A stretch of DNA of 64,000 bases, taken from IMG/VR virus record IMGVR_UViG_3300033998_000095, positions 48,007 to 112,006 of that record. One strand, 5' to 3'. Position numbers and translations under genes: made by a program. Of this stretch, positions 39,194-48,198 are shown one piece after another. Each line of letters begins with the position of its first letter. Position 1 is the stretch's first letter. Source of the DNA: a virus. The notes below the pieces were generated by a model. That model did no database searches and was not told where the DNA came from. It saw only the letters and a list, made by a program, of their open reading frames with translations.

Positions 39194-40363
39194 ATGATTA
39201 TGGGTGATATTTATGAACTGGTAAAAGAGATTGAAGAGGATTTGAAAGAGACTGTTGAGGATATTAGTTTTAATGAAGATATTGAAACCATACCAACTGG
39301 TATAGATCTATTTGATACTATACTTGGTGGTGGAATACCTGTTGGTAAGTTGGTGCTTATAACAGGTGCTCCTGGTGGTGGAAAGACAAGCTTAGCAATA
39401 AGTATGATATCATCTTTGCAAAAGAGATATAAAAATGCTCTTGCTTTATATCTTGATGCTGAACAGTCTATGGGAAAGAAGAGATTGGAAGAATTTGATG
39501 TTGATACTGATAGGACTATTCTCATTTCCCAAGATCTTACAGTAGAAAAGGTTAGCAAGATAATATCTAAAGCAACTGCATATAGAGAAAATAAAAAATA
39601 TAAAGATATTAATGATCCTTTCTTTGTGGTATGGGATAGTGAATCTGCTACCATGACAAATAAACAGTTAGCAGCAAACGATGATCCATCTAAAGTACTT
39701 GGACAAAAGTCAAACATGTTATCATTAGTTATCCCTAAACTGGTAAATGTTGCTAATAAGTATAAAATGACATTTATAGTTATATCTCAATTGAGAGATA
39801 AGATAAGTATGAATCCATTTGCATCTAACTCTCCTGATTTGAAAGGATTAGGTGATAAAAGAATAACTGGTGGAAATGTGATGCGTTTTCATCCATTTCA
39901 GATCATCTATATGAGACCAAAGGAAGATGTAGATATAGATGTTTATGGATTCTCAGGTGTTATATCTGAAGTTAAATTGATAAAGAATAAGTTGTTTAGA
40001 CCAAACATTAAAATTAACATAGTCTTAGATTATATACGTGGTTATAATGATTTTTGGACTAGAGAGTATCTAATAAGACAACATAAAGGTATAAAAGGTA
40101 CAGCATGGCAGTATTTAGATAATTATCCAGATGTTAAGTTTAGAAAAAGCGATATCCTTAATATGTATAATACAAATGAGACATTTAGACAGAAATTTGA
40201 TGAATTGTATTATACCTATAAAGAAGAACTTTTGAAATCTACACTTCTAGATACTGCTGTTGTTGATCTTGATGATTCTGAAGAAGCAGATGAAGAAGAT
40301 GGTGTTTCTGATGTCAACTACCCACCGCTTATAGAAGCGGAGGCTTGGAAAAGCCTTAGTTGA
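39194..40363 (+). CDS. uvsX: RecA/UvsX recombinase; last 16 aa come from the IscB element
   Basis: GAPGGGKT, LDAE, VWDS, SQLRDK, TGGN, KNK. Confidence 0.9.
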   Translation: MIMGDIYELVKEIEEDLKETVEDISFNEDIETIPTGIDLFDTILGGGIPVGKLVLITGAPGGGKTSLAISMISSLQKRYKNALALYLDAEQSMGKKRLEEFDVDTDRTILISQDLTVEKVSKIISKATAYRENKKYKDINDPFFVVWDSESATMTNKQLAANDDPSKVLGQKSNMLSLVIPKLVNVANKYKMTFIVISQLRDKISMNPFASNSPDLKGLGDKRITGGNVMRFHPFQIIYMRPKEDVDIDVYGFSGVISEVKLIKNKLFRPNIKINIVLDYIRGYNDFWTREYLIRQHKGIKGTAWQYLDNYPDVKFRKSDILNMYNTNETFRQKFDELYYTYKEELLKSTLLDTAVVDLDDSEEADEEDGVSDVNYPPLIEAEAWKSLS

Positions 40364-40540
40364 CTACCCTAAGTCTTAACTGACTACGTTGGAATAATTA
40401 TCTTACCCTGAAATGATGCCCAAGTTTCAGGCTCTAAGGTGGCTCTGTAAAAGTTCTGATGGGTAGGAACGGTCAACCACAATTGGCAGTTATACTGCAA
40501 AGTTATTCCAACATTGGGGATGGGCAAATAACTCCGAAAG
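40313..40540 (+). ncRNA. IscB omegaRNA (HEARO-like)
   Basis: GTCAACTAC...GTTGACTACCC...GACTACGTT...AACATTGGGGATGGG. Confidence 0.85.
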
Positions 40541-40556
40541 GAGGGCTTAAAGCCAA

Positions 40557-41870
40557 ATGTTAGTATATGTTATTTCAGTTGATGGGAAACCTTTAATGCC
40601 TTGCAAGCCTGCTAAGGTAAGAAAATTGCTGAAAAACAAGAAGGCTAAAATAGTAAAATATGAACCATTTACAATTCAATTATTATTTGAGTGTGAAAAC
40701 CAAGTGCAAGATTGTATATTAGGAATTGACGCAGGAAGTAAACATATAGGAATAGCAGTTATAACTGAACAAGGTAATGTGCTTTATCGTGCCGAAGCAG
40801 AATTAAGGCAAGATATAAAAGAAAATATTGAAACAAGGAAACGGCTTCGGCAAGCAAGACGTAATAGAAAAACAAGATATAGAAAACCTAGATTTCTAAA
40901 TAGAAAAAGGAAAGAAGGATGGTTACCACCGAGTATACAATCAAGAATTAATGCTCATATAAGACTAGTAAATGATATTGTAAAAATTTTACCTATAAGC
41001 AGAATAAGAGTAGAAATAGGGCAATTTGATACACAGGCATTAGTTAATCCAGATATTAATGGTATAGAATATCAACAGGGAGAAATGTATGGATATGATA
41101 GCGTAAAAGAATATGTAAAAATAAGAGATAATTTTACTTGTCATTATGCAAAATTAAGACCAGACATACCTTGCAATGATATTCTTGAAGTAGACCATAT
41201 TATACCAAGAAGCAAGGGTGGTAGCAATAATCCAAGCAATTTGGTATGTAGTTGTGAAGCACATAATAAAGCAAAAGGCAACATGGAATACAAAGAATTT
41301 ACAGGTAAAAATCTACCTAAGATAAAGCAATTTCAGGAAACGGCATTTATGAATGTTCTTAAAGATTATCTTGTGCCTAAACTACAAGAAATAATACCAA
41401 CGCAGTATACTTTTGGACTATACACACGCAGAAAGCGTAAAGAGTGGAATATAGAAAAGTCGCATATAAACGATGCAGTAGTAATTGCAAATATAAAACC
41501 AATGAAGTATAGCGATAATATATATTATATAAAGCAAGTACGCAAAAAGAAACGTAATTTGCATGAAGAAATACCGCGTAAAGGTAGAAAAGAACCTAAT
41601 AGGAAAGCAAAAAGAAATAGCAAAAATACAAAAGAAATAATTGTAAAAGAAAAGAAGTGGTGCTTGCGGGATAAAGTGTATATACCAGAAATAAATAAGA
41701 TTGGTTTTATATCGGGATTCGCTGGTAATTGGGTATATGTGCAAGATATACAAGGCAATTATTTACAAACAACATCTAAATATAAGCAAATTAGCACAGA
41801 AAAAATTCGATTGGCGTGTAGAAACAACAATTGGATAACCGATTCATCCTCCACTTTCGCTTACGCTTAG
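40557..41870 (+). CDS. iscB: RNA-guided endonuclease IscB
   Basis: PLMPC, GIDAG, bridge helix, VEIGQFD, VDHIIP..SN..HN, SHINDA. Confidence 0.95.
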   Translation: MLVYVISVDGKPLMPCKPAKVRKLLKNKKAKIVKYEPFTIQLLFECENQVQDCILGIDAGSKHIGIAVITEQGNVLYRAEAELRQDIKENIETRKRLRQARRNRKTRYRKPRFLNRKRKEGWLPPSIQSRINAHIRLVNDIVKILPISRIRVEIGQFDTQALVNPDINGIEYQQGEMYGYDSVKEYVKIRDNFTCHYAKLRPDIPCNDILEVDHIIPRSKGGSNNPSNLVCSCEAHNKAKGNMEYKEFTGKNLPKIKQFQETAFMNVLKDYLVPKLQEIIPTQYTFGLYTRRKRKEWNIEKSHINDAVVIANIKPMKYSDNIYYIKQVRKKKRNLHEEIPRKGRKEPNRKAKRNSKNTKEIIVKEKKWCLRDKVYIPEINKIGFISGFAGNWVYVQDIQGNYLQTTSKYKQISTEKIRLACRNNNWITDSSSTFAYA

Positions 41871-42422: not shown

Positions 42423-43808
42423 ATGGGGGTTAATCCAATTATGATCAAAAATAATAATTTTATCTTGGACATGTTTTATACTTCAGAATTAGATAGCGTG
42501 GATGCTCAAAAGTTAGTACTGTTTAATGATGCTGATGTATTATGGTTTTATGAACAAGTAGAGTTTAATGGTACTATAATGTATAGAGTTCCACGCTATT
42601 ATTTTACTGATAAACAGGCTACAGATCTAACTACACATGGTGAAGATATTGATTTAAAAATTAAATCAGATTATGCTCCTCAAAGTGAAGCTCAAAGGTT
42701 AGCAATAGAAGCCATAGTTAATAATGATCATGGTTTAATAGCAGCTAAGGTTGGTTTTGGAAAAACATATGTTGCTATAGATGCTATATCTAGAATCAAA
42801 AAGAAGGCATTGATTGTAGTCAATAAAACAGCACTTATAGATCAGTGGATTGAGAGAATAATCCAATTTACATCTCTCACTGCTGATGATATTGGTATCA
42901 TATCTGGCAGAAAGCAAGAATTTAATAAACCCATTTGTATTGCTACTGTTCAGACTCTATTTAGAAGAGTTAAAAACGAAGATAAAGCCTTTATTAAAAG
43001 TATGTATGAAGCTAATTTTGGTGTTACCTTTTATGATGAATGCCATATAACAGCAGCAGCTCCAACATTTTCAACAAGTATTAAGACTATATTCTCTAAA
43101 AGACTATATGGATTGTCTGCTACGCCATATAGATCAGATGGTCTTGGACAATTATTGAATTGGTTTATAGGCCCAATTATATTTGATGATAGTAAGTTAA
43201 ATGTTCCTGTATATGTTGGACTAGTAGACATACCATTGTATATATCTCAAGGATATAAGAAGTATATTGAGTGGTCTAATGACAACAGCATAATAACACG
43301 CTATTGTAAGTTTCTTAAGAAACAGGATGTTTATATACGTCAGATAGCTAAGACAATAGATGATTTAATAAAATTAGATTTACAAATTTTAGGATTGAGT
43401 GCAATGATAGATCTTTTGTATATGATATATGATAAATGTCAATATAAACATAAGATATCTATAGTACATTCTTCTGTAGAGGAAAAAGATTATTCTAAAC
43501 AATGTATACTAGCTACATATGGAATGTTTAAAGAAGGAATGGATGTTCCACGTTTGAATACTTTAATTTATATAACTCCTATAACTAATAAGAACAGTTT
43601 AATGCAAAGCATAGGGAGAATCAGTAGATATACATCTGCAGATAAAAAGGCGTTTGTAATAGATATAGTTAATAGTGAATATGAACCATTGAAGAAGATG
43701 AGAGAATATAGGCTTCGCTATTACAAACAATTTGGATTTAAATATGTTAATGCTGATCTGGATAATATAGATAAGTTTATAGAGTATGCACGAGGAGGTA
43801 TTATATAA
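42423..43808 (+). CDS. uvsW: SF2 helicase (UvsW-like)
   Basis: GFGKT, DECH, GLSATP, EGMDVP, QSIGRISR. Confidence 0.85.
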   Translation: MGVNPIMIKNNNFILDMFYTSELDSVDAQKLVLFNDADVLWFYEQVEFNGTIMYRVPRYYFTDKQATDLTTHGEDIDLKIKSDYAPQSEAQRLAIEAIVNNDHGLIAAKVGFGKTYVAIDAISRIKKKALIVVNKTALIDQWIERIIQFTSLTADDIGIISGRKQEFNKPICIATVQTLFRRVKNEDKAFIKSMYEANFGVTFYDECHITAAAPTFSTSIKTIFSKRLYGLSATPYRSDGLGQLLNWFIGPIIFDDSKLNVPVYVGLVDIPLYISQGYKKYIEWSNDNSIITRYCKFLKKQDVYIRQIAKTIDDLIKLDLQILGLSAMIDLLYMIYDKCQYKHKISIVHSSVEEKDYSKQCILATYGMFKEGMDVPRLNTLIYITPITNKNSLMQSIGRISRYTSADKKAFVIDIVNSEYEPLKKMREYRLRYYKQFGFKYVNADLDNIDKFIEYARGGII

Positions 43809-43809
43809 A

Positions 43810-44742
43810 ATGGATGGACAGAAGAAAGTAAAAAAATGTTTTGTACAGGGTGATATTGAGAGTAATAATGTATATATGACTTCTGGTTTACAACCACCAA
43901 CTGATGCTGATTTGATATATAGAAGTGAGATATCAGCATATACACAACCTTTCAGTAGTGGTGGTTGTTATGATGACAAAACAAAAGTCAGAACAGATAA
44001 TGGATGGAAGTATTTCAAAGATGTAGATATTGATGAAGATCGTTTTTACACTTTTAATATAGATAGTAATAGGATTCAGTTACAGCATGCTATAAAAAAA
44101 TTTGATTTCGATATTGATGAAGAATTAATTCATTTTAAAAGTACTGTATTGGATATAATGGTTACAAAAGATCATAATATGGTAATAATAGATAAAAATG
44201 GAAAATATAGAATTGTACAAGCATCAATGGTAGAAGAAATGTTTCAAAAAGGGGAACATATATTTATCCCAACTGCAGAAACAGAGCATGCTTCTTTAAA
44301 AGTACAGAGTATAGAACGAGTACCATATAAAGGAAAAGTATATTGTGTTGAAGTTCCCAATCATGTTTTGTATGTTAAAAGAGAATGTGGTATCCCTGTT
44401 TGGTGTGGAAACTCTATAGAACATGTCTTTCTTGGAGCTAAAGTGTCTGAAAAATTAAAAAAGGATATAATTGATAAGTTATTCGATATGCCAATTAATT
44501 ATATTACATTGTCACCAGTATTGAGCGTATGTAATAATTGTCATTCTAAGTTTGTAGGAGAACATTATGTATGCCCTAATTGCAAAGACGCTGATCATAT
44601 GATGATATATGCTAGGATAATTGGATATGTAAGACCAATCATATCAGGACATATACGCATAGAGAATAATATGATAAATGGTGATGAAAACTATTGGCAA
44701 GATGCTAGACGTGTTGATTGGGTAGACAGAAATAAGTTATAA
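43810..44742 (+). CDS. nrdD: Class III ribonucleotide reductase NrdD, C-terminal (glycyl-radical) fragment with mini-intein
   Basis: YMTSG, TQPFSSGG|intein|SIEH, YITLSP, CxxC...CxxC, YARIIGYVRP; RBS GAGGAGG favours ATG 43810. Confidence 0.88.
   Translation: MDGQKKVKKCFVQGDIESNNVYMTSGLQPPTDADLIYRSEISAYTQPFSSGGCYDDKTKVRTDNGWKYFKDVDIDEDRFYTFNIDSNRIQLQHAIKKFDFDIDEELIHFKSTVLDIMVTKDHNMVIIDKNGKYRIVQASMVEEMFQKGEHIFIPTAETEHASLKVQSIERVPYKGKVYCVEVPNHVLYVKRECGIPVWCGNSIEHVFLGAKVSEKLKKDIIDKLFDMPINYITLSPVLSVCNNCHSKFVGEHYVCPNCKDADHMMIYARIIGYVRPIISGHIRIENNMINGDENYWQDARRVDWVDRNKL
43966..44412 (+). other. Cis mini-intein (149 aa, C1...TKDH...WCGN, +1 Ser)
   Basis: CYDDKTKVRT..GWK, VTKDHNM, VYCVEVPNH, WCGN|S; no endonuclease domain. 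Confidence 0.93.
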
Positions 44743-44766
44743 TAAAGGAGCGTATGAAAAGAAAGA

Positions 44767-45174
44767 ATGGGTGAATGCAATTTGTATCTGATTAAAGCTA
44801 TATCTATACTAATTGAAGATGAAATATATCCAGATATACTATTACGCATAATGGCATCAGCAAAGACCTCTACACCCATTCTTTATTCATTAGTAAATAT
44901 ACTTAAAAGAGCAGAATTTATAGATGTACCAGATAAACAGTTGCTATATTTTATTAGTAAACATATAATTAAGTTATCTAAATATATACAAAGTAATACA
45001 TCATCTCGTGAATTAATACATGCTAGCATTAAAGATGAACTAGAGTCATTATCAATTTGGATTGATGTTGATAATAATCTTAGTAATTTAGTTTTAATTC
45101 TTTATAAGATGTTTCCAGAAGATCATGATATAGAAAACTTAGTAAAAAAAGTTAATAATATTCTTAAAGACTAA
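44767..45174 (+). CDS. Hypothetical helical protein
   Basis: ORF inside the RNR cluster. Confidence 0.55.
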   Translation: MGECNLYLIKAISILIEDEIYPDILLRIMASAKTSTPILYSLVNILKRAEFIDVPDKQLLYFISKHIIKLSKYIQSNTSSRELIHASIKDELESLSIWIDVDNNLSNLVLILYKMFPEDHDIENLVKKVNNILKD

Positions 45175-45216
45175 TTCTGTAATAGTAGAATAACTTTTAT
45201 TGGGAGGTAATGTTAC

Positions 45217-45840
45217 ATGCGTGAACCAATGTTTTTTAATTTACAATGTTCTTTAGTTGATCATCCTGAGACAATTTCTGCTGTTGTTTATACCAGATTC
45301 TGTAATTGGAATTGCTGGGGTTGCCATAATATGAAGTATTTATTAAAAGGCAAAGATCTGGTATCATATACAATGGAAGATATAATTCAAGCTGCTAAGA
45401 ACCCACTTGTTGAATTATTAATTATTACTGGTGGAGAACCTCTTATTCAGGGTGATGAATTTATAGATGCTTTGAGATATCTTAGGCGGAATATAGAGAA
45501 ACCAATTAGATTAGATACCAATGGTACTTCTCCTGAATTAGTGAAACAGGTAAAAGAAGAAGGATTAGTAGATGGGTTTGCTGTAGATGTCAAGTTTCCA
45601 TATTGGTTAGAAGATCATGATAATATTTTACAAAAGATAACTGGTACAAAAGATATTGATAAGAGTGCTATACTTAAGACTATGAAGCTGGTTGATGGTA
45701 TGCCTTTTAGTTTATTTAGGACAGTTAAATATCCTATATTGTCAAATGAGCTTTTATCTTGTATAACTACATATATGAAGGATAATTTTACGTCACCACA
45801 TTTTGTGAACACATATTATACGTTTAATAATGTACAATAA
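45217..45840 (+). CDS. nrdG: Anaerobic RNR activase (radical SAM)
   Basis: SLVDHP, CNWNCWGCHN, ITGGEP, LDTNG. Confidence 0.92.
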   Translation: MREPMFFNLQCSLVDHPETISAVVYTRFCNWNCWGCHNMKYLLKGKDLVSYTMEDIIQAAKNPLVELLIITGGEPLIQGDEFIDALRYLRRNIEKPIRLDTNGTSPELVKQVKEEGLVDGFAVDVKFPYWLEDHDNILQKITGTKDIDKSAILKTMKLVDGMPFSLFRTVKYPILSNELLSCITTYMKDNFTSPHFVNTYYTFNNVQ

Positions 45841-45869
45841 TAAAATTATTTAAGGAGGATATAATTATC

Positions 45870-47423
45870 ATGTCAAAGTATACTGAAATAGTTGACAAAT
45901 ATCTTAATAGGGATGACATTTCCAGGCATAATAGTAATTTGGTTTATTCTTTACCTGCACTTAATTCAACATTATATGGTGAAGCAAGTAAAGAATATTG
46001 GTTTGAAAAGGTGTACCCATCATATGCCAGTAAATTGCATGAAGAAGGATGGCTATATATACATAATTTGAGCATATTAGGTCCATATTGTTCTGGATAT
46101 TCTGCTGAAGATATAGCTATGAAAGGACTTAATTCCACTGCTGTAAATGGATTAAAGACAGCCCCTCCCAAACATGTACATAGTCTTTTAGGTCAGTGCA
46201 GTAATTTTATTGCATTAATTTCTCAAGAAATACATGGTGCATGTGCTATAAATGATATTACAACAGTAGTGGCAGCCTATCTGTTTGTTGAAAGAGAGTT
46301 ATTAAACAGAAATGTTGATTATCAAGATCTAATTAATGCATGGCAGCATTTTATATTTGAAATTAATGTTCCTTTTAGAGCAGGTAATAGTTCTTTTTCT
46401 AATATCACAATGGCATTTGGAGGACCAGATGCTGCTTTAAAGGATGAATTTATTGTATTTGGTGGAAACCATTTAATTAAAAATACTGTTATACGTTCTG
46501 GAAATACAGAGATTAAACTTGATAGAGATTATAAGTATTCAGATGTACCTGCAAAATATTATGATGAAGTGAATAAAGCATTTATAGAGACTTTTGCAAA
46601 AGGAGATAATAGTGGAAAACCATTCAGTTTTCCTTTGATTACAGTTAATATAACTGATAATTTTGATTTTGATAATGAAATATTTAATATGCTACTTGAA
46701 GAAATGGATAAATGGGGTGGAGTATATTTTGAAAATTATAGAACCAAACCATTTCTTGAAGATAGCAAATATAAACAATTAAACAAGTATATTAAAGCTA
46801 GAAATATGGAGATGCAGAAATCATTTTGTTGTAGATTTCAAGTCTCTTTAGAGGATATATTGAAAATAAATAGTGGTATATTTAGAAGTGGTTCTGGTGT
46901 GGGTGGTGTTGGTGTATTTAATATTAATCTAAATAGAATTGGATATATAGCTCAAGGTGATTGGGATATATATTTCACTATTTTAGATGATCTTATGGAG
47001 AAAGCTGAAGAATTAGCACAGGCTAAGAGATGTTTTATAGAAGCGCATAAAGAACTATATCCTTACTTTTTCTTTTATAACCAATCTCTAGATTCTTATT
47101 TTAATGTTATATCTATTTGTGGTGGACATGAATCTCTTATGAATATGGGTTATTCAAAGGGATTACTTTCTGAAGATGGTATTGTTGCTGCTACTAAAAT
47201 AGGTGATTTTATGTGCAAGAAAGTTAATGCACTTATTAAGAGAGATAATATTCCTATAAATTTAGAATATGCTCCATCAGAATCTGCTGCTCCAAAGATG
47301 GCTAAAGCTGATTTGAGTTTCCAGAAATGGATAGAGAATGAGATGCAACCTGAAGATAAGTTTTCCTTTTTCAAGGATATCATAAAGCAGCAGTATGAAA
47401 AGGGAGTATTCTTTGAGGATTGA
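45870..47423 (+). CDS. nrdD: Class III RNR NrdD, N-terminal catalytic barrel fragment
   Basis: LHEEGWLYIHNL...YC, PFSFP, SFCCR, NINLNR, EYAPSES; lacks the Gly-radical C-terminus. Confidence 0.9.
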   Translation: MSKYTEIVDKYLNRDDISRHNSNLVYSLPALNSTLYGEASKEYWFEKVYPSYASKLHEEGWLYIHNLSILGPYCSGYSAEDIAMKGLNSTAVNGLKTAPPKHVHSLLGQCSNFIALISQEIHGACAINDITTVVAAYLFVERELLNRNVDYQDLINAWQHFIFEINVPFRAGNSSFSNITMAFGGPDAALKDEFIVFGGNHLIKNTVIRSGNTEIKLDRDYKYSDVPAKYYDEVNKAFIETFAKGDNSGKPFSFPLITVNITDNFDFDNEIFNMLLEEMDKWGGVYFENYRTKPFLEDSKYKQLNKYIKARNMEMQKSFCCRFQVSLEDILKINSGIFRSGSGVGGVGVFNINLNRIGYIAQGDWDIYFTILDDLMEKAEELAQAKRCFIEAHKELYPYFFFYNQSLDSYFNVISICGGHESLMNMGYSKGLLSEDGIVAATKIGDFMCKKVNALIKRDNIPINLEYAPSESAAPKMAKADLSFQKWIENEMQPEDKFSFFKDIIKQQYEKGVFFED

Positions 47424-47448
47424 CATTGAAAGTACATAATGCTATAAT
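47420..47448 (+). promoter_or_regulatory. Consensus sigma70 promoter
   Basis: TTGACA-17-TATAAT with extended TG. Confidence 0.8.
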
Positions 47449-47514: not shown

Positions 47515-48198
47515 GTGGAGGTAATTGTAATAATGGCTTCCAATTCCTATATACAGGACAGAACACGTAGAAAGAATGTTAGCAGAATTATTGATAAAGT
47601 AATTATACGTGATTATGTCTCCAATCATTTTCAAACAGCTGTCTTTAGCTTAGAAGATATGGATACTCAAGATAATATATTTTCTAAGTTTGATATTATT
47701 TATGGTATTGATCATTTTCACTTTGCAAAGAATGAGCGTGCTAAATTGACAACATTTGCGACATCTAATAGAATATGTTTTTATACCAGTACACCAAAGT
47801 ATTATTTTCAGATTAAATTTCATCGTAGTACATATGAAACAGAATATGAAAAATGGAAAAGATATATAGAGAATTCAAAACAATTTCAAAAAGAGTTTCT
47901 CATTATACCAACCTATTTTATTCAATCTATTGTACAAGAGGATTTGAGACGTTTAATTGAATGGTATCTTGCAAAAGATTGGAAAGTAGAAGATATAGAA
48001 CGTCATCTTAAGAAGAATATGGAACGTTTTAAAATCAATGAAAAGATTTCTCATATAGCAGTTGCTAAGATAAAGGATATAATAGATGCTATTGATAATG
48101 GTCATTATACTACAAAAAAAATAAAAGATGGTTCAAGTATTCTTGTTTGGGCAATGGTACCTTGGACTGCAGTTAATGATCTAGAACTTATTAAATAA
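47515..48198 (+). CDS. Hypothetical protein
   Basis: ORF with GGAGG RBS (likely ATG 47533). Confidence 0.65.
   Translation: MEVIVIMASNSYIQDRTRRKNVSRIIDKVIIRDYVSNHFQTAVFSLEDMDTQDNIFSKFDIIYGIDHFHFAKNERAKLTTFATSNRICFYTSTPKYYFQIKFHRSTYETEYEKWKRYIENSKQFQKEFLIIPTYFIQSIVQEDLRRLIEWYLAKDWKVEDIERHLKKNMERFKINEKISHIAVAKIKDIIDAIDNGHYTTKKIKDGSSILVWAMVPWTAVNDLELIK

What the first reader, a model, noticed from the sequence alone, without database searches (positions are those of the whole stretch)
43810..47423. Split and order-permuted class III RNR with a separate glycyl-radical subunit
Seen: the C-terminal NrdD part (YMTS...GG/SIEH, Zn ribbon, RIIGY) is a separate gene upstream of nrdG. The catalytic barrel comes last and stops shortly after EYAPSES..MAKAD, where the other fragment picks up. 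There is no intein at this junction, and no ATP cone is visible. Inference: a non-covalent two-chain NrdD. Because O2 cleaves glycyl-radical enzymes at the Gly, a replaceable small chain would resemble the GrcA/YfiD spare part of pyruvate formate-lyase.
Basis: partly seen in the sequence, partly recalled or inferred. Interest (0 to 1): 0.82.

Follow-up and report, generated by a model that had tools for sequence, protein, structure and literature searches.

The report
Two-gene, order-swapped anaerobic ribonucleotide reductase
This large phage from anaerobic digesters encodes its oxygen-sensitive DNA-precursor enzyme (class III ribonucleotide reductase) as two separate proteins whose genes are in reverse order; both pieces are conserved and under selection, so it is most likely a working two-chain enzyme, a layout I found in no paper I could search.

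Summary
NrdD is encoded as a 517-aa body (45870-47423) and a 310-aa precursor of the radical-bearing piece (43810-44742, with a 148-aa mini-intein). The gene order is C piece, orfX, nrdG, N piece.

It is not an assembly artefact or a decaying gene. The same order occurs on at least 19 fetched contigs (six distinct sequence groups, several assemblies), down to 50% protein identity. dN/dS is 0.04-0.09 for both pieces. All catalytic motifs are kept, and every gene has its own ribosome-binding site.

The same break point, in normal gene order, occurs in Desulfurobacteriaceae bacteria. In two of these genomes I found no other ribonucleotide reductase. An AlphaFold model of a natural read-through form places the break in a low-confidence stretch of the model (read as a loop).

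The small chain is not only the radical domain. It also carries the last two conserved barrel motifs and the zinc ribbon.

The "GrcA-like spare part" idea is not: the body has no radical domain of its own, so the small chain is an obligate subunit, and only one copy is present.

This scan has reported two-piece NrdDs on other DNA, but broken elsewhere (46-100-aa radical peptides). Verdict: a new variant of a known kind.

The parts
43810..44742 (+). nrdD-C: precursor (310 aa) of the small, radical-bearing chain; 162 aa after intein removal
   Evidence: Pfam NRDD positions 469-545. Aligns to FA67 NrdD 475-634. SD GAGGAGG then ATG 43810. dN/dS 0.085 and 0.036 for the two exteins.
43810..43965 (+). 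Extein 1 (52 aa): head MDGQKKVKKCFVQGD and the conserved YMTSG(L)QPP barrel motif, ending in GG
   Evidence: Alignment of stand-alone C pieces, T/S/G/F/Q/P invariant. Coordinates.
43966..44409 (+). Mini-intein (148 aa, C53...TKDH...WCGN200, +1 Ser), no endonuclease domain, inserted at the invariant GG|S(I/V)xH motif
   Evidence: Sequence. Weak Pfam Intein_splicing hit, 18 bits, below cut-off. Present only in the closest relatives (61-99% id) and absent at 50-73% identity.
44410..44742 (+). Extein 2 (110 aa): SIEHVF strand, Zn ribbon C241/C244/C255/C258 (44530-44583), glycyl-radical motif RIIGY with Gly272 (44623-44625)
   Evidence: In the model of a homologue this part folds as in solved NrdD.
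44767..45174 (+). orfX (135 aa), unknown function, conserved between nrdD-C and nrdG in the subclade
   Evidence: A profile of seven members finds it only in this slot, in relatives down to 62% identity. No Pfam, PHROG or Atlas lead. dN/dS 0.27.
45217..45840 (+). nrdG, radical-SAM activase (CNWNCWGC cluster motif)
   Evidence: Pfam Radical_SAM and Fer4_12. Best NCBIfam hit is NrdG2 TIGR02495, 100 bits, below its 131-bit cut-off. SD GGGAGG. dN/dS 0.076.
45870..47423 (+). nrdD-N (517 aa): barrel body with finger loop FCCR (46824-46835) and EYAPSE strand (47265-47282); no ATP cone, no radical domain
   Evidence: Pfam NRDD 2-428, E 8e-70. AF2 model pLDDT 89.9, pTM 0.90. SD AAGGAGG. dN/dS 0.058.
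47316..47420 (+). C-terminal tail of nrdD-N (last ~35 aa, ...PEDKFSFFKDIIKQQYEKGVFFED), conserved across the clade
   Evidence: Consensus YxxFxDIIKKQYxxGxFFE, W487 and Y509 at least 90% conserved. Helix 502-510 modelled at pLDDT 96. The equivalent helix in the Desulfurobacterium model has pLDDT 93-98.
42423..43808 (+). Upstream ResIII/DEAD helicase gene, directly abutting nrdD-C; synteny partner in every relative with enough upstream sequence
   Evidence: Pfam. Helicase then C piece on the relatives' contigs.

Best explanation
The phage makes a class III (anaerobic, glycyl-radical) ribonucleotide reductase from two polypeptides.

NrdD-N (517 aa) is the barrel body. It has the double-cysteine finger loop but lacks the end of the barrel and the whole radical domain. 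NrdD-C is made as a 310-aa precursor. A mini-intein must first splice out, giving a 162-aa chain. That chain supplies the last two conserved barrel motifs (YMTSG and GG-SIEH), the zinc ribbon and the radical glycine (RIIGY).

The two chains assemble non-covalently into a complete NrdD fold, and NrdG installs the radical on the small chain. The four genes (nrdD-C, orfX, nrdG, nrdD-N) look like one operon, each with its own ribosome-binding site.

The break is an old gene fission at a stretch that models with low confidence, read as a surface loop. It is shared with Desulfurobacteriaceae and other phages, where the order is nrdG, N, C. In this phage clade the C gene was later moved in front of nrdG.

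Shown: the split, the order, conservation, selection, motifs, and the fold of homologues. Inferred: assembly, activity, splicing, and the order of evolutionary events.
For: Split and order.

The order helicase, C, (orfX), nrdG, N recurs on viral contigs L004/L005 and metagenome contigs L024-L038 and L045, from several assemblies, at 99% down to 50% identity.

Purifying selection against the 87% relative: dN/dS 0.058 (N), 0.085 and 0.036 (C exteins), 0.076 (nrdG), with dS above 1.

In 11 stand-alone C pieces from three lineages the TSGFQ.P, A.GG..H.F, CxxC...CxxC and R.IGY.RP motifs are invariant, and all start 6-10 residues before (C/I)(F/Y)V(Q/N)G. The N-piece tail is conserved and modelled as a confident helix.

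Colinear split in Desulfurobacteriaceae: about 25 of 178 Aquificota genomes, with a GGGAGG SD and ATG right after the N stop. Two of five of these genomes searched have no class I/II catalytic subunit.

An AF2 model of the natural read-through Desulfurobacterium sequence has pLDDT 89.9 and pTM 0.91, with only the junction (residues 511-540) at low confidence. It matches solved class III RNRs 8P2S, 4U3E and 1H79.

There are no RNA intron families in the region and no flanking repeats. An AU test does not reject a single origin of all 42 split forms (p 0.54).
Against: No direct evidence of assembly or activity exists: no complex model could be run, and there are no proteomic or biochemical data.

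The record is only about 41% complete, so a second RNR or a second C copy elsewhere in the phage cannot be excluded.

The intein's Pfam score is below cut-off and its penultimate residue is Gly rather than His, so splicing competence is assumed.

The free tree shows three split clades, so independent fissions at the same loop remain possible.
Confidence: 0.8

Rival explanations
1. Exchangeable 'spare part'. Because O2 cleaves the chain at the radical glycine, keeping that glycine on a small separate chain lets the phage or cell replace only the damaged 18-kDa piece and re-use the large body, as GrcA/YfiD does for pyruvate formate-lyase.
For: The radical glycine is on a separate small chain. 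The 2026 GRE review says spare parts are known only for formate lyases and that the question is open for other GREs (PMC13450708). T4 encodes a GrcA homologue, Y06I (reference list). The C gene comes first in the operon and has a strong SD.
Against: The large chain has no radical domain of its own, so the small chain is an obligate subunit and not a spare. Only one copy is in the record. The small chain also carries two conserved barrel motifs and the Zn ribbon, which suggests an intimate, slowly exchanging interface. Here it must also be matured by an intein, which is not what one expects of a fast-turnover part. No homology to GrcA/PFL Gly_radical was found.
Confidence: 0.1
2. The pieces are joined into one chain after transcription or translation, by a split intein, RNA trans- or back-splicing, or read-through.
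For: In some Desulfurobacteriaceae the two ORFs are in frame, separated by one stop.
Against: The N tail has no Cys/Ser-initiated intein N-part, and the C head is only about 9 residues before conserved extein sequence; about 45 residues in all is far too small for an intein. No intron family was detected. The helicase stop abuts the C start, leaving no room for an intron half. With the order swapped, read-through cannot join N to C. Other Desulfurobacteriaceae have the two ORFs in different frames (L023). Each gene has its own SD and start.
Confidence: 0.03
3. Dead remnants: a rearrangement broke nrdD and the pieces are decaying, or the order is an assembly artefact.
For: Fragmented nrdD genes of unknown status have been reported in phages, for example Aeromonas phage phiAS4 (PMC3653736).
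Against: dN/dS is 0.04-0.09 with saturated dS. There are no internal stops in any relative. Motifs are invariant. The layout is identical on contigs from several independent assemblies and at 50% identity.
Confidence: 0.02
4. The phage pieces do not pair with each other but with host proteins. For example, the small chain could serve the host's NrdD, or the large chain could use a host-encoded radical piece.
For: Stand-alone radical pieces occur without a visible partner on some viral contigs, according to earlier notes.
Against: N and C are always found together with nrdG in this clade and evolve at similar low rates. The conserved N tail and C head meet at the same structural position.
Confidence: 0.05

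Closest known systems
Single-chain class III RNR NrdD with activase NrdG (phage T4, PDB 1H79; Thermotoga maritima, 4COI/4U3E; Prevotella copri, 8P2S)
   Same: Same family and fold. Finger-loop cysteines, C-terminal Zn ribbon, RxxGY radical glycine and an adjacent radical-SAM activase are all present. The double-cysteine finger loop without the upstream Met (FCCR) resembles the N. bacilliformis/T. maritima type discussed in PMC9669993.
   Different: Two polypeptides instead of one. The break lies after the EYAPSE strand and its following helices. The gene for the C-terminal part lies upstream of nrdG and of the N-terminal part. There is no ATP cone, and a mini-intein sits in the small chain.
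Split class II RNR NrdJa/NrdJb of Pseudomonas aeruginosa and other gamma-proteobacteria (Crona et al. 2015, PMC4520616; discussed in PMC9669993 and PMC3267527)
   Same: The catalytic subunit is naturally encoded as two genes, with the C-terminal functional module (there a Zn-finger/IscU-like tail) on the second chain. The first chain carries an extra C-terminal element proposed to dock the second, which parallels the conserved N tail here.
   Different: A different RNR class and radical chemistry. The genes are colinear. The second chain is not the radical carrier.
Aeromonas phage Aeh1 NrdA-a/NrdA-b (class I alpha split by the mobE homing endonuclease; Friedrich 2007, Crona 2011, cited in PMC3267527 and PMC3653736)
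   Same: A phage RNR catalytic subunit in two genes that still forms an active (alpha-a + alpha-b)2 beta2 enzyme.
   Different: Class I. The split was caused by an inserted endonuclease gene that is still present. The order is colinear and it is a single known phage, not a conserved clade.
GrcA/YfiD of E. coli and Y06I of phage T4 (autonomous glycyl-radical cofactors for pyruvate formate-lyase)
   Same: A small separately encoded protein carrying a glycyl-radical loop that is activated by the parent enzyme's activase.
   Different: GrcA is an extra copy that replaces a damaged domain of a complete enzyme. Here the small chain is the only radical domain, belongs to the NRDD family and not the PFL Gly_radical family, and also carries barrel elements and a Zn ribbon.
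Two-piece NrdDs noted earlier in this scan (46-100-aa radical peptides next to or away from nrdD)
   Same: Class III RNR with the radical glycine on a separate gene product; no description was found in the literature.
   Different: The break point there is just before, or inside, the Zn/glycine tail. Here it is about 100 residues earlier, giving a 162-aa chain, and the gene order is swapped. I did not test those cases.

Membership tests
Class III ribonucleotide reductase (NrdD) | Barrel homologous to NRDD (Pfam PF13597 / TIGR02487) | tested here: met
   N piece 236.6 bits and C piece 49.8 bits against a 26.2-bit cut-off, covering model positions 2-428 and 469-545. The NCBIfam full-length equivalog cut-offs are not reached by either piece alone, as expected for fragments.
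Class III ribonucleotide reductase (NrdD) | Finger-loop cysteine(s) for the thiyl radical | tested here: met
   FCCR at residues 319-322 of the N piece. C320, C321 and R322 are invariant in 83 homologues.
Class III ribonucleotide reductase (NrdD) | C-terminal Zn ribbon (CxxC...CxxC) followed by the RxxGY glycyl-radical motif | tested here: met
   CNNC...CPNC and RIIGY on the C piece, invariant in all 11 stand-alone C pieces.
Class III ribonucleotide reductase (NrdD) | Cognate radical-SAM activase NrdG encoded nearby | tested here: met
   45217-45840 has Radical_SAM, Fer4_12 and CNWNCWGC. Its best NCBIfam hit is NrdG2, below cut-off.
Class III ribonucleotide reductase (NrdD) | Glycyl radical formation and NTP reduction | not testable with these tools
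   Needs anaerobic biochemistry and EPR.
GrcA/YfiD-type spare-part protein | The parent enzyme keeps its own radical domain and the small protein is an additional copy | tested here: not met
   The N piece ends before the TSG motif and has no Zn ribbon or RxxGY. Only one C-type match occurs in the record.
GrcA/YfiD-type spare-part protein | Homology to the PFL C-terminal Gly_radical domain | tested here: not met
   Pfam finds only NRDD and a weak intein hit in the C piece.
GrcA/YfiD-type spare-part protein | Restores activity after O2 cleavage | not testable with these tools
   Needs biochemistry.
Split intein (protein trans-splicing) at the break | N-intein starting with Cys/Ser at the end of the first gene product, and a C-intein ending in Asn before a nucleophile in the second | tested here: not met
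   The N tail is about 35 aa of conserved helix with no Cys or Ser at the homology boundary. The C head is about 9 aa with no Asn-nucleophile junction. No intein Pfam hit occurs in the N piece.
Naturally split RNR catalytic subunits (NrdJa/b, Aeh1 NrdA-a/b) | Catalytic subunit encoded by two conserved genes that together cover the full-length protein | tested here: met
Naturally split RNR catalytic subunits (NrdJa/b, Aeh1 NrdA-a/b) | The two chains form an active complex | not testable with these tools
   No multimer modelling was available. The proxy is a confident single-chain model of a natural read-through homologue.
Mini-intein (HINT domain) in the C piece | Cys1, block B TxxH, terminal Asn, +1 nucleophile, inserted in a conserved host motif | tested here: met
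   C53, TKDH, N200 and S201, inserted at the invariant GG|S. The Pfam Intein_splicing score of 18.1 is below the 35.8 cut-off, and the penultimate residue is Gly, not His.

The most novel reading that the evidence does not exclude
Placing the O2-labile radical glycine on a separate 18-kDa chain could be adaptive. NrdG could activate the free small chain off-enzyme, and after oxygen cleavage the damaged chain could be swapped for a fresh one. That would make this the first spare-part-like repair logic for a glycyl-radical enzyme outside pyruvate formate-lyase, with the conserved orfX acting as an assembly or exchange factor.
Probability: 0.1. Interest if true: 0.8.

Novelty: new variant of a known kind. 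Interest (0 to 1): 0.6.

Why it matters
Split catalytic subunits are documented for class I (Aeh1) and class II (NrdJa/b) RNRs. In the reviews and full-text searches available here, I found nothing on a class III RNR made of two gene products. One analysis explicitly treats split domains as possibly particular to class II (PMC9669993).

A natural two-chain NrdD, conserved in phages and in culturable thermophiles, would be a ready-made system for three questions:
- How NrdG reaches the buried glycine. An 18-kDa substrate is tractable by NMR and EPR.
- How the radical domain docks into the barrel.
- Whether any glycyl-radical enzyme other than PFL can renew its radical-bearing part. The 2026 GRE review calls this question open.

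There is also an annotation lesson. Neither piece reaches NCBIfam's NrdD cut-offs, so genomes with this layout can be mis-scored as lacking, or as having a broken, anaerobic RNR.

Tried and rejected
I obtained gene contexts through the search for related loci and the genome search instead.

2. A single-sequence scan of viral contigs found nothing. The alignment-based scans worked.

3. A word-indexed search with a stand-alone C piece found only 2 proteins. The full HMMER search showed more, but short hits further down the list cannot be told from gene fragments at contig ends.

4. Duplication-deletion origin. I suspected that the N tail (..KDIIKQQYEKGVFFED) and the C head (..KKCFVQGD..VYMTSG) both retain a copy of the same strand of the full-length protein, which would be a footprint of a tandem nrdG-nrdD duplication. 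Evidence in favour: tblastn and HMM alignments overlap by 6-15 positions. Evidence against: in a shuffle test only 2 of 14 tails beat 95% of shuffles. I treat this as not significant and dropped it as evidence.

5. Independent origins of the split. The free tree needs 3 changes, but the AU test does not reject one clade of all split forms, so I cannot decide.

6. RNA-level joining or DNA rearrangement sites. Rfam found only the IscB-associated HEARO RNA upstream. No meaningful repeats flank the block. Promoter and terminator scans were at shuffle level, apart from one perfect promoter after the N stop.

7. The function of orfX. Pfam, PHROGs and the ESM Atlas gave nothing.

8. No complex (multimer) model could be made. 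A fused N+C sequence of the window is not a natural translation, so I did not build one.
Full report
**What is there**

The window is part of a 112-kb IMG/VR virus record, about 29% G+C, estimated 41% complete. On the + strand, tightly packed, lie five genes:
- a ResIII/DEAD helicase gene (42423-43808);
- a 310-aa ORF starting at ATG 43810 (the longest ORF call starts at 43786, but SD GAGGAGG and the helicase stop at 43806-08 favour 43810);
- a 135-aa ORF, orfX (44767-45174);
- nrdG (45217-45840);
- a 517-aa ORF (45870-47423).

Pfam places the 517-aa protein on NRDD model positions 2-428 of 562 (E 8e-70). It places the end of the 310-aa protein on positions 469-545. nrdG is a radical-SAM protein, and no ATP cone is found. 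These are the only two NRDD matches in the record. No class I/II catalytic subunit is present in the part that is held.

**Fit of the two pieces**

The nearest named phage relative, Clostridium phage vB_CtyS-FA67, has an unsplit 656-aa NrdD.
- Its residues 24-482 align with the N piece (43% identity).
- Residues 475-523 align with the first part of the C piece.
- Residues 523-634 align with the part after an insert.

The pieces therefore abut, without a gap. The insert (C53...TKDH...WCGN200, then S201; 43966-44409) is a 148-aa mini-intein sitting in the invariant GG|SxxH motif, not at the break. The C piece carries YMTSG, GG-SIEH, a CNNC...CPNC zinc ribbon and the RIIGY radical motif, with Gly272 at 44623-44625. 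The N piece carries the FCCR finger loop and the EYAPSE strand, followed by a 35-aa tail.

**Not an artefact and not a wreck**

Alignment-based scans fetched relatives from viral and metagenome collections. A tblastn map of every locus shows the order helicase, C piece, (orfX), nrdG, N piece in:
- L024-L027 (98-99% identity);
- L028-L030 (87%);
- L031-L035 and L045 (62-73%);
- L004/L005 and L036-L038 (50% identity, a much G+C-richer phage).

These contigs come from several different assemblies. The intein is present only in the closest relatives, and a 284-aa ORF is inserted between nrdG and the N gene in L028-L030, so the block evolves while keeping its order.

Against the 87% relative, dS is above 1. 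dN/dS is 0.058 (N core), 0.085 and 0.036 (C exteins) and 0.076 (nrdG), compared with 0.18 for the intein and 0.27 for orfX. Each gene has its own Shine-Dalgarno sequence. There is no convincing internal promoter or terminator, and a perfect sigma-70-type promoter follows the N stop. The four genes therefore look like one operon.

**The same break elsewhere**

Among 120 close homologues of the N piece, 42 are about 505-565 aa long. These end 40-75 residues after the EYAP(S/A)E motif and lack the radical motifs. Some are named Desulfurobacterium, Thermovibrio or Desulfurobacteriaceae.

In those genomes the order is nrdG, N piece, C piece. In L021 the N gene ends in ...GGGAGGTAA and the C gene starts at an ATG 6 nt later, which is a textbook coupled gene pair. 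About 25 of 178 Aquificota genomes show the split pattern: model positions 2-427 plus 436-547. The two ORFs are in frame with one stop in some genomes and in different frames in others. Of five such genomes, two have no PF02867 (class I/II) match, one of them with a contig above 1.27 Mb. There the two-gene NrdD appears to be the only RNR. A colinear split with two inteins in the N piece also occurs on a viral contig (L006/L047).

All 11 stand-alone C pieces, from the three lineages, start 6-10 residues before (C/I)(F/Y)V(Q/N)G and keep every functional motif.

A full HMMER search with their profile finds a handful of 155-195-aa clusters at the top, ahead of full-length NrdDs. NCBIfam has no model for either piece, and both fall below the NrdD cut-offs.

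**Where the break lies in the fold**

I read the natural in-frame Desulfurobacterium pair through its single TAA and modelled it with a 92-row alignment.
- Mean pLDDT is 89.9 and pTM is 0.91.
- The N tail forms a helix (residues 491-509) at pLDDT 93-98.
- Residues 511-540 fall to 46-53. These are the last residues of the N piece, the stop, and the first about 22 residues of the C piece.
- Confidence returns at the FLTSG motif.
- Foldseek matches the model to solved class III RNRs: P. copri 8P2S, T. maritima 4U3E/4COI and T4 1H79.

The window's N piece modelled alone is equally confident (89.9, pTM 0.90), with its tail helix 502-510 at pLDDT 96.

Counting strands, the N piece holds the first eight barrel strands and the finger loop. 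The C piece holds the last two conserved barrel segments (TSG; GGSxxH), then the zinc ribbon and the glycine loop. The strand assignment is my inference from order along the chain. I had no coordinates to measure contacts.

**How it most likely works**

Two chains assemble non-covalently into a normal NrdD protomer, after the small chain has spliced out its intein. NrdG then puts the radical on Gly272 of the small chain. Whether NrdG acts on the free small chain or on the complex is open. The FCCR finger loop, which lacks the upstream Met, is the type associated with thioredoxin-dependent reduction in PMC9669993. I did not test the reductant type further.

**Evolution**

The window's clade (15 rows, SH-aLRT 97) is sister (98) to a full-length clade. 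Members of that clade carry 7-30 in-frame TGA codons, so they are Absconditabacteria-type organisms with a recoded TGA, and their order is nrdG-nrdD. The free tree needs three split/unsplit changes. A tree holding all 42 split forms together is not rejected, and is even slightly better (p-AU 0.54).

Together with the identical break point, this favours one old fission (nrdG-N-C) followed by relocation of the C gene in this phage clade. Repeated fission at a permissive loop remains possible. My alternative idea, tandem duplication plus deletions leaving an overlapping strand on both pieces, did not survive a shuffle test.

**The spare-part idea**

GrcA/YfiD (and T4 Y06I) is an additional copy of a domain that PFL itself retains. 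The 2026 GRE review states that spare parts are known only for formate lyases, and that it is undetermined whether others exist.

Here the large chain has no radical domain, so the small chain is the regular subunit. There is one copy in the record. It carries barrel elements and a Zn ribbon, and in this phage it needs intein maturation. Exchange after oxygen damage is conceivable but nothing supports it. I give it about 10%. An earlier checked note in this scan reached the same judgement for another split NrdD.

**What is known**

Split RNRs are described for class I (Aeh1 NrdA-a/b) and class II (NrdJa/b). Phage nrdD genes interrupted by introns or inteins, or fragmented with unknown status, are listed in PMC3653736. 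I found no paper describing a conserved two-gene NrdD. The searchable library is incomplete, so this is absence of evidence.

This scan has noted two-piece NrdDs on other DNA before. Those have a different break, a 46-100-aa radical peptide. The present case differs in three ways: the break lies about 100 residues earlier, the gene order is swapped, and there is an intein in the small chain.

**Verdict**

The two-chain interpretation is supported and the spare-part analogy is not. This is a new variant of a known kind, of moderate to good interest for RNR and glycyl-radical enzymology and for genome annotation.

Noticed in passing
window 40313-41870: An IscB-type element lies just upstream of the block. 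A HEARO/omega RNA (Rfam RF02033, 135.8 bits, 40313-40532) is followed by a 437-aa RRXRR+HNH protein (40557-41870).
   Followed up: partly
window 44767-45174; L031:1223-1717, L032:4870-5349, L033:4888-5373, L034:2668-3156, L045:1618-2097: orfX is a 135-165-aa protein of unknown function, always between nrdD-C and nrdG in relatives down to 62% identity. It has conserved motifs (..TP.LYS..N.W.. and ..EL.D...Y.D..EKLS..). It has no Pfam, PHROG or Atlas lead. L004 has an unrelated 307-aa ORF in the same slot.
   Followed up: partly
window 47420-47448: A perfect sigma-70-type promoter (TTGACA, 17 nt with TG, TATAAT) overlaps the nrdD-N stop codon, ahead of the next gene (47515-48198, no family hit).
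   Followed up: no
L040:5935-7971, L041:1356-3365, L042:1569-3578, L043:5971-7971: The closest full-length NrdD relatives carry 7-30 in-frame TGA codons, so those contigs use a TGA-sense code (Absconditabacteria/Gracilibacteria-like, code 25 or 4). The public protein versions show W at these positions, often where relatives have G.
   Followed up: partly
L006:6621-9953 (same as L047:4621-7953): On a viral contig with the colinear split, the N piece is 1110 aa because of two large inserts. Both are flanked by Cys and HN/SN junctions. One interrupts the PYC motif and one sits inside the CC finger loop (NCC|YYP...GSN|CRM). They are probably inteins, the first large enough for a homing endonuclease.
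   Followed up: no
L028:1570-2424, L029:5123-5977: In the 87%-identity relatives a 284-aa ORF of unknown function is inserted between nrdG and nrdD-N. The block therefore tolerates cargo insertions while keeping its order.
   Followed up: no
P0126 (509 aa): A C-piece homologue of 509 aa matches the profile in two stretches, the second at residues 391-500. This suggests a much larger intein, possibly with an endonuclease, at the same GG|S site.
   Followed up: no
L021:3619-3645; G165-G168: In some Desulfurobacteriaceae the two NrdD ORFs are in the same frame, separated by a single TAA or TGA. In others they are in different frames or overlap by about 11 nt (L012: 7544 against 7554). This would be a natural test set for read-through against true two-chain expression.
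   Followed up: partly
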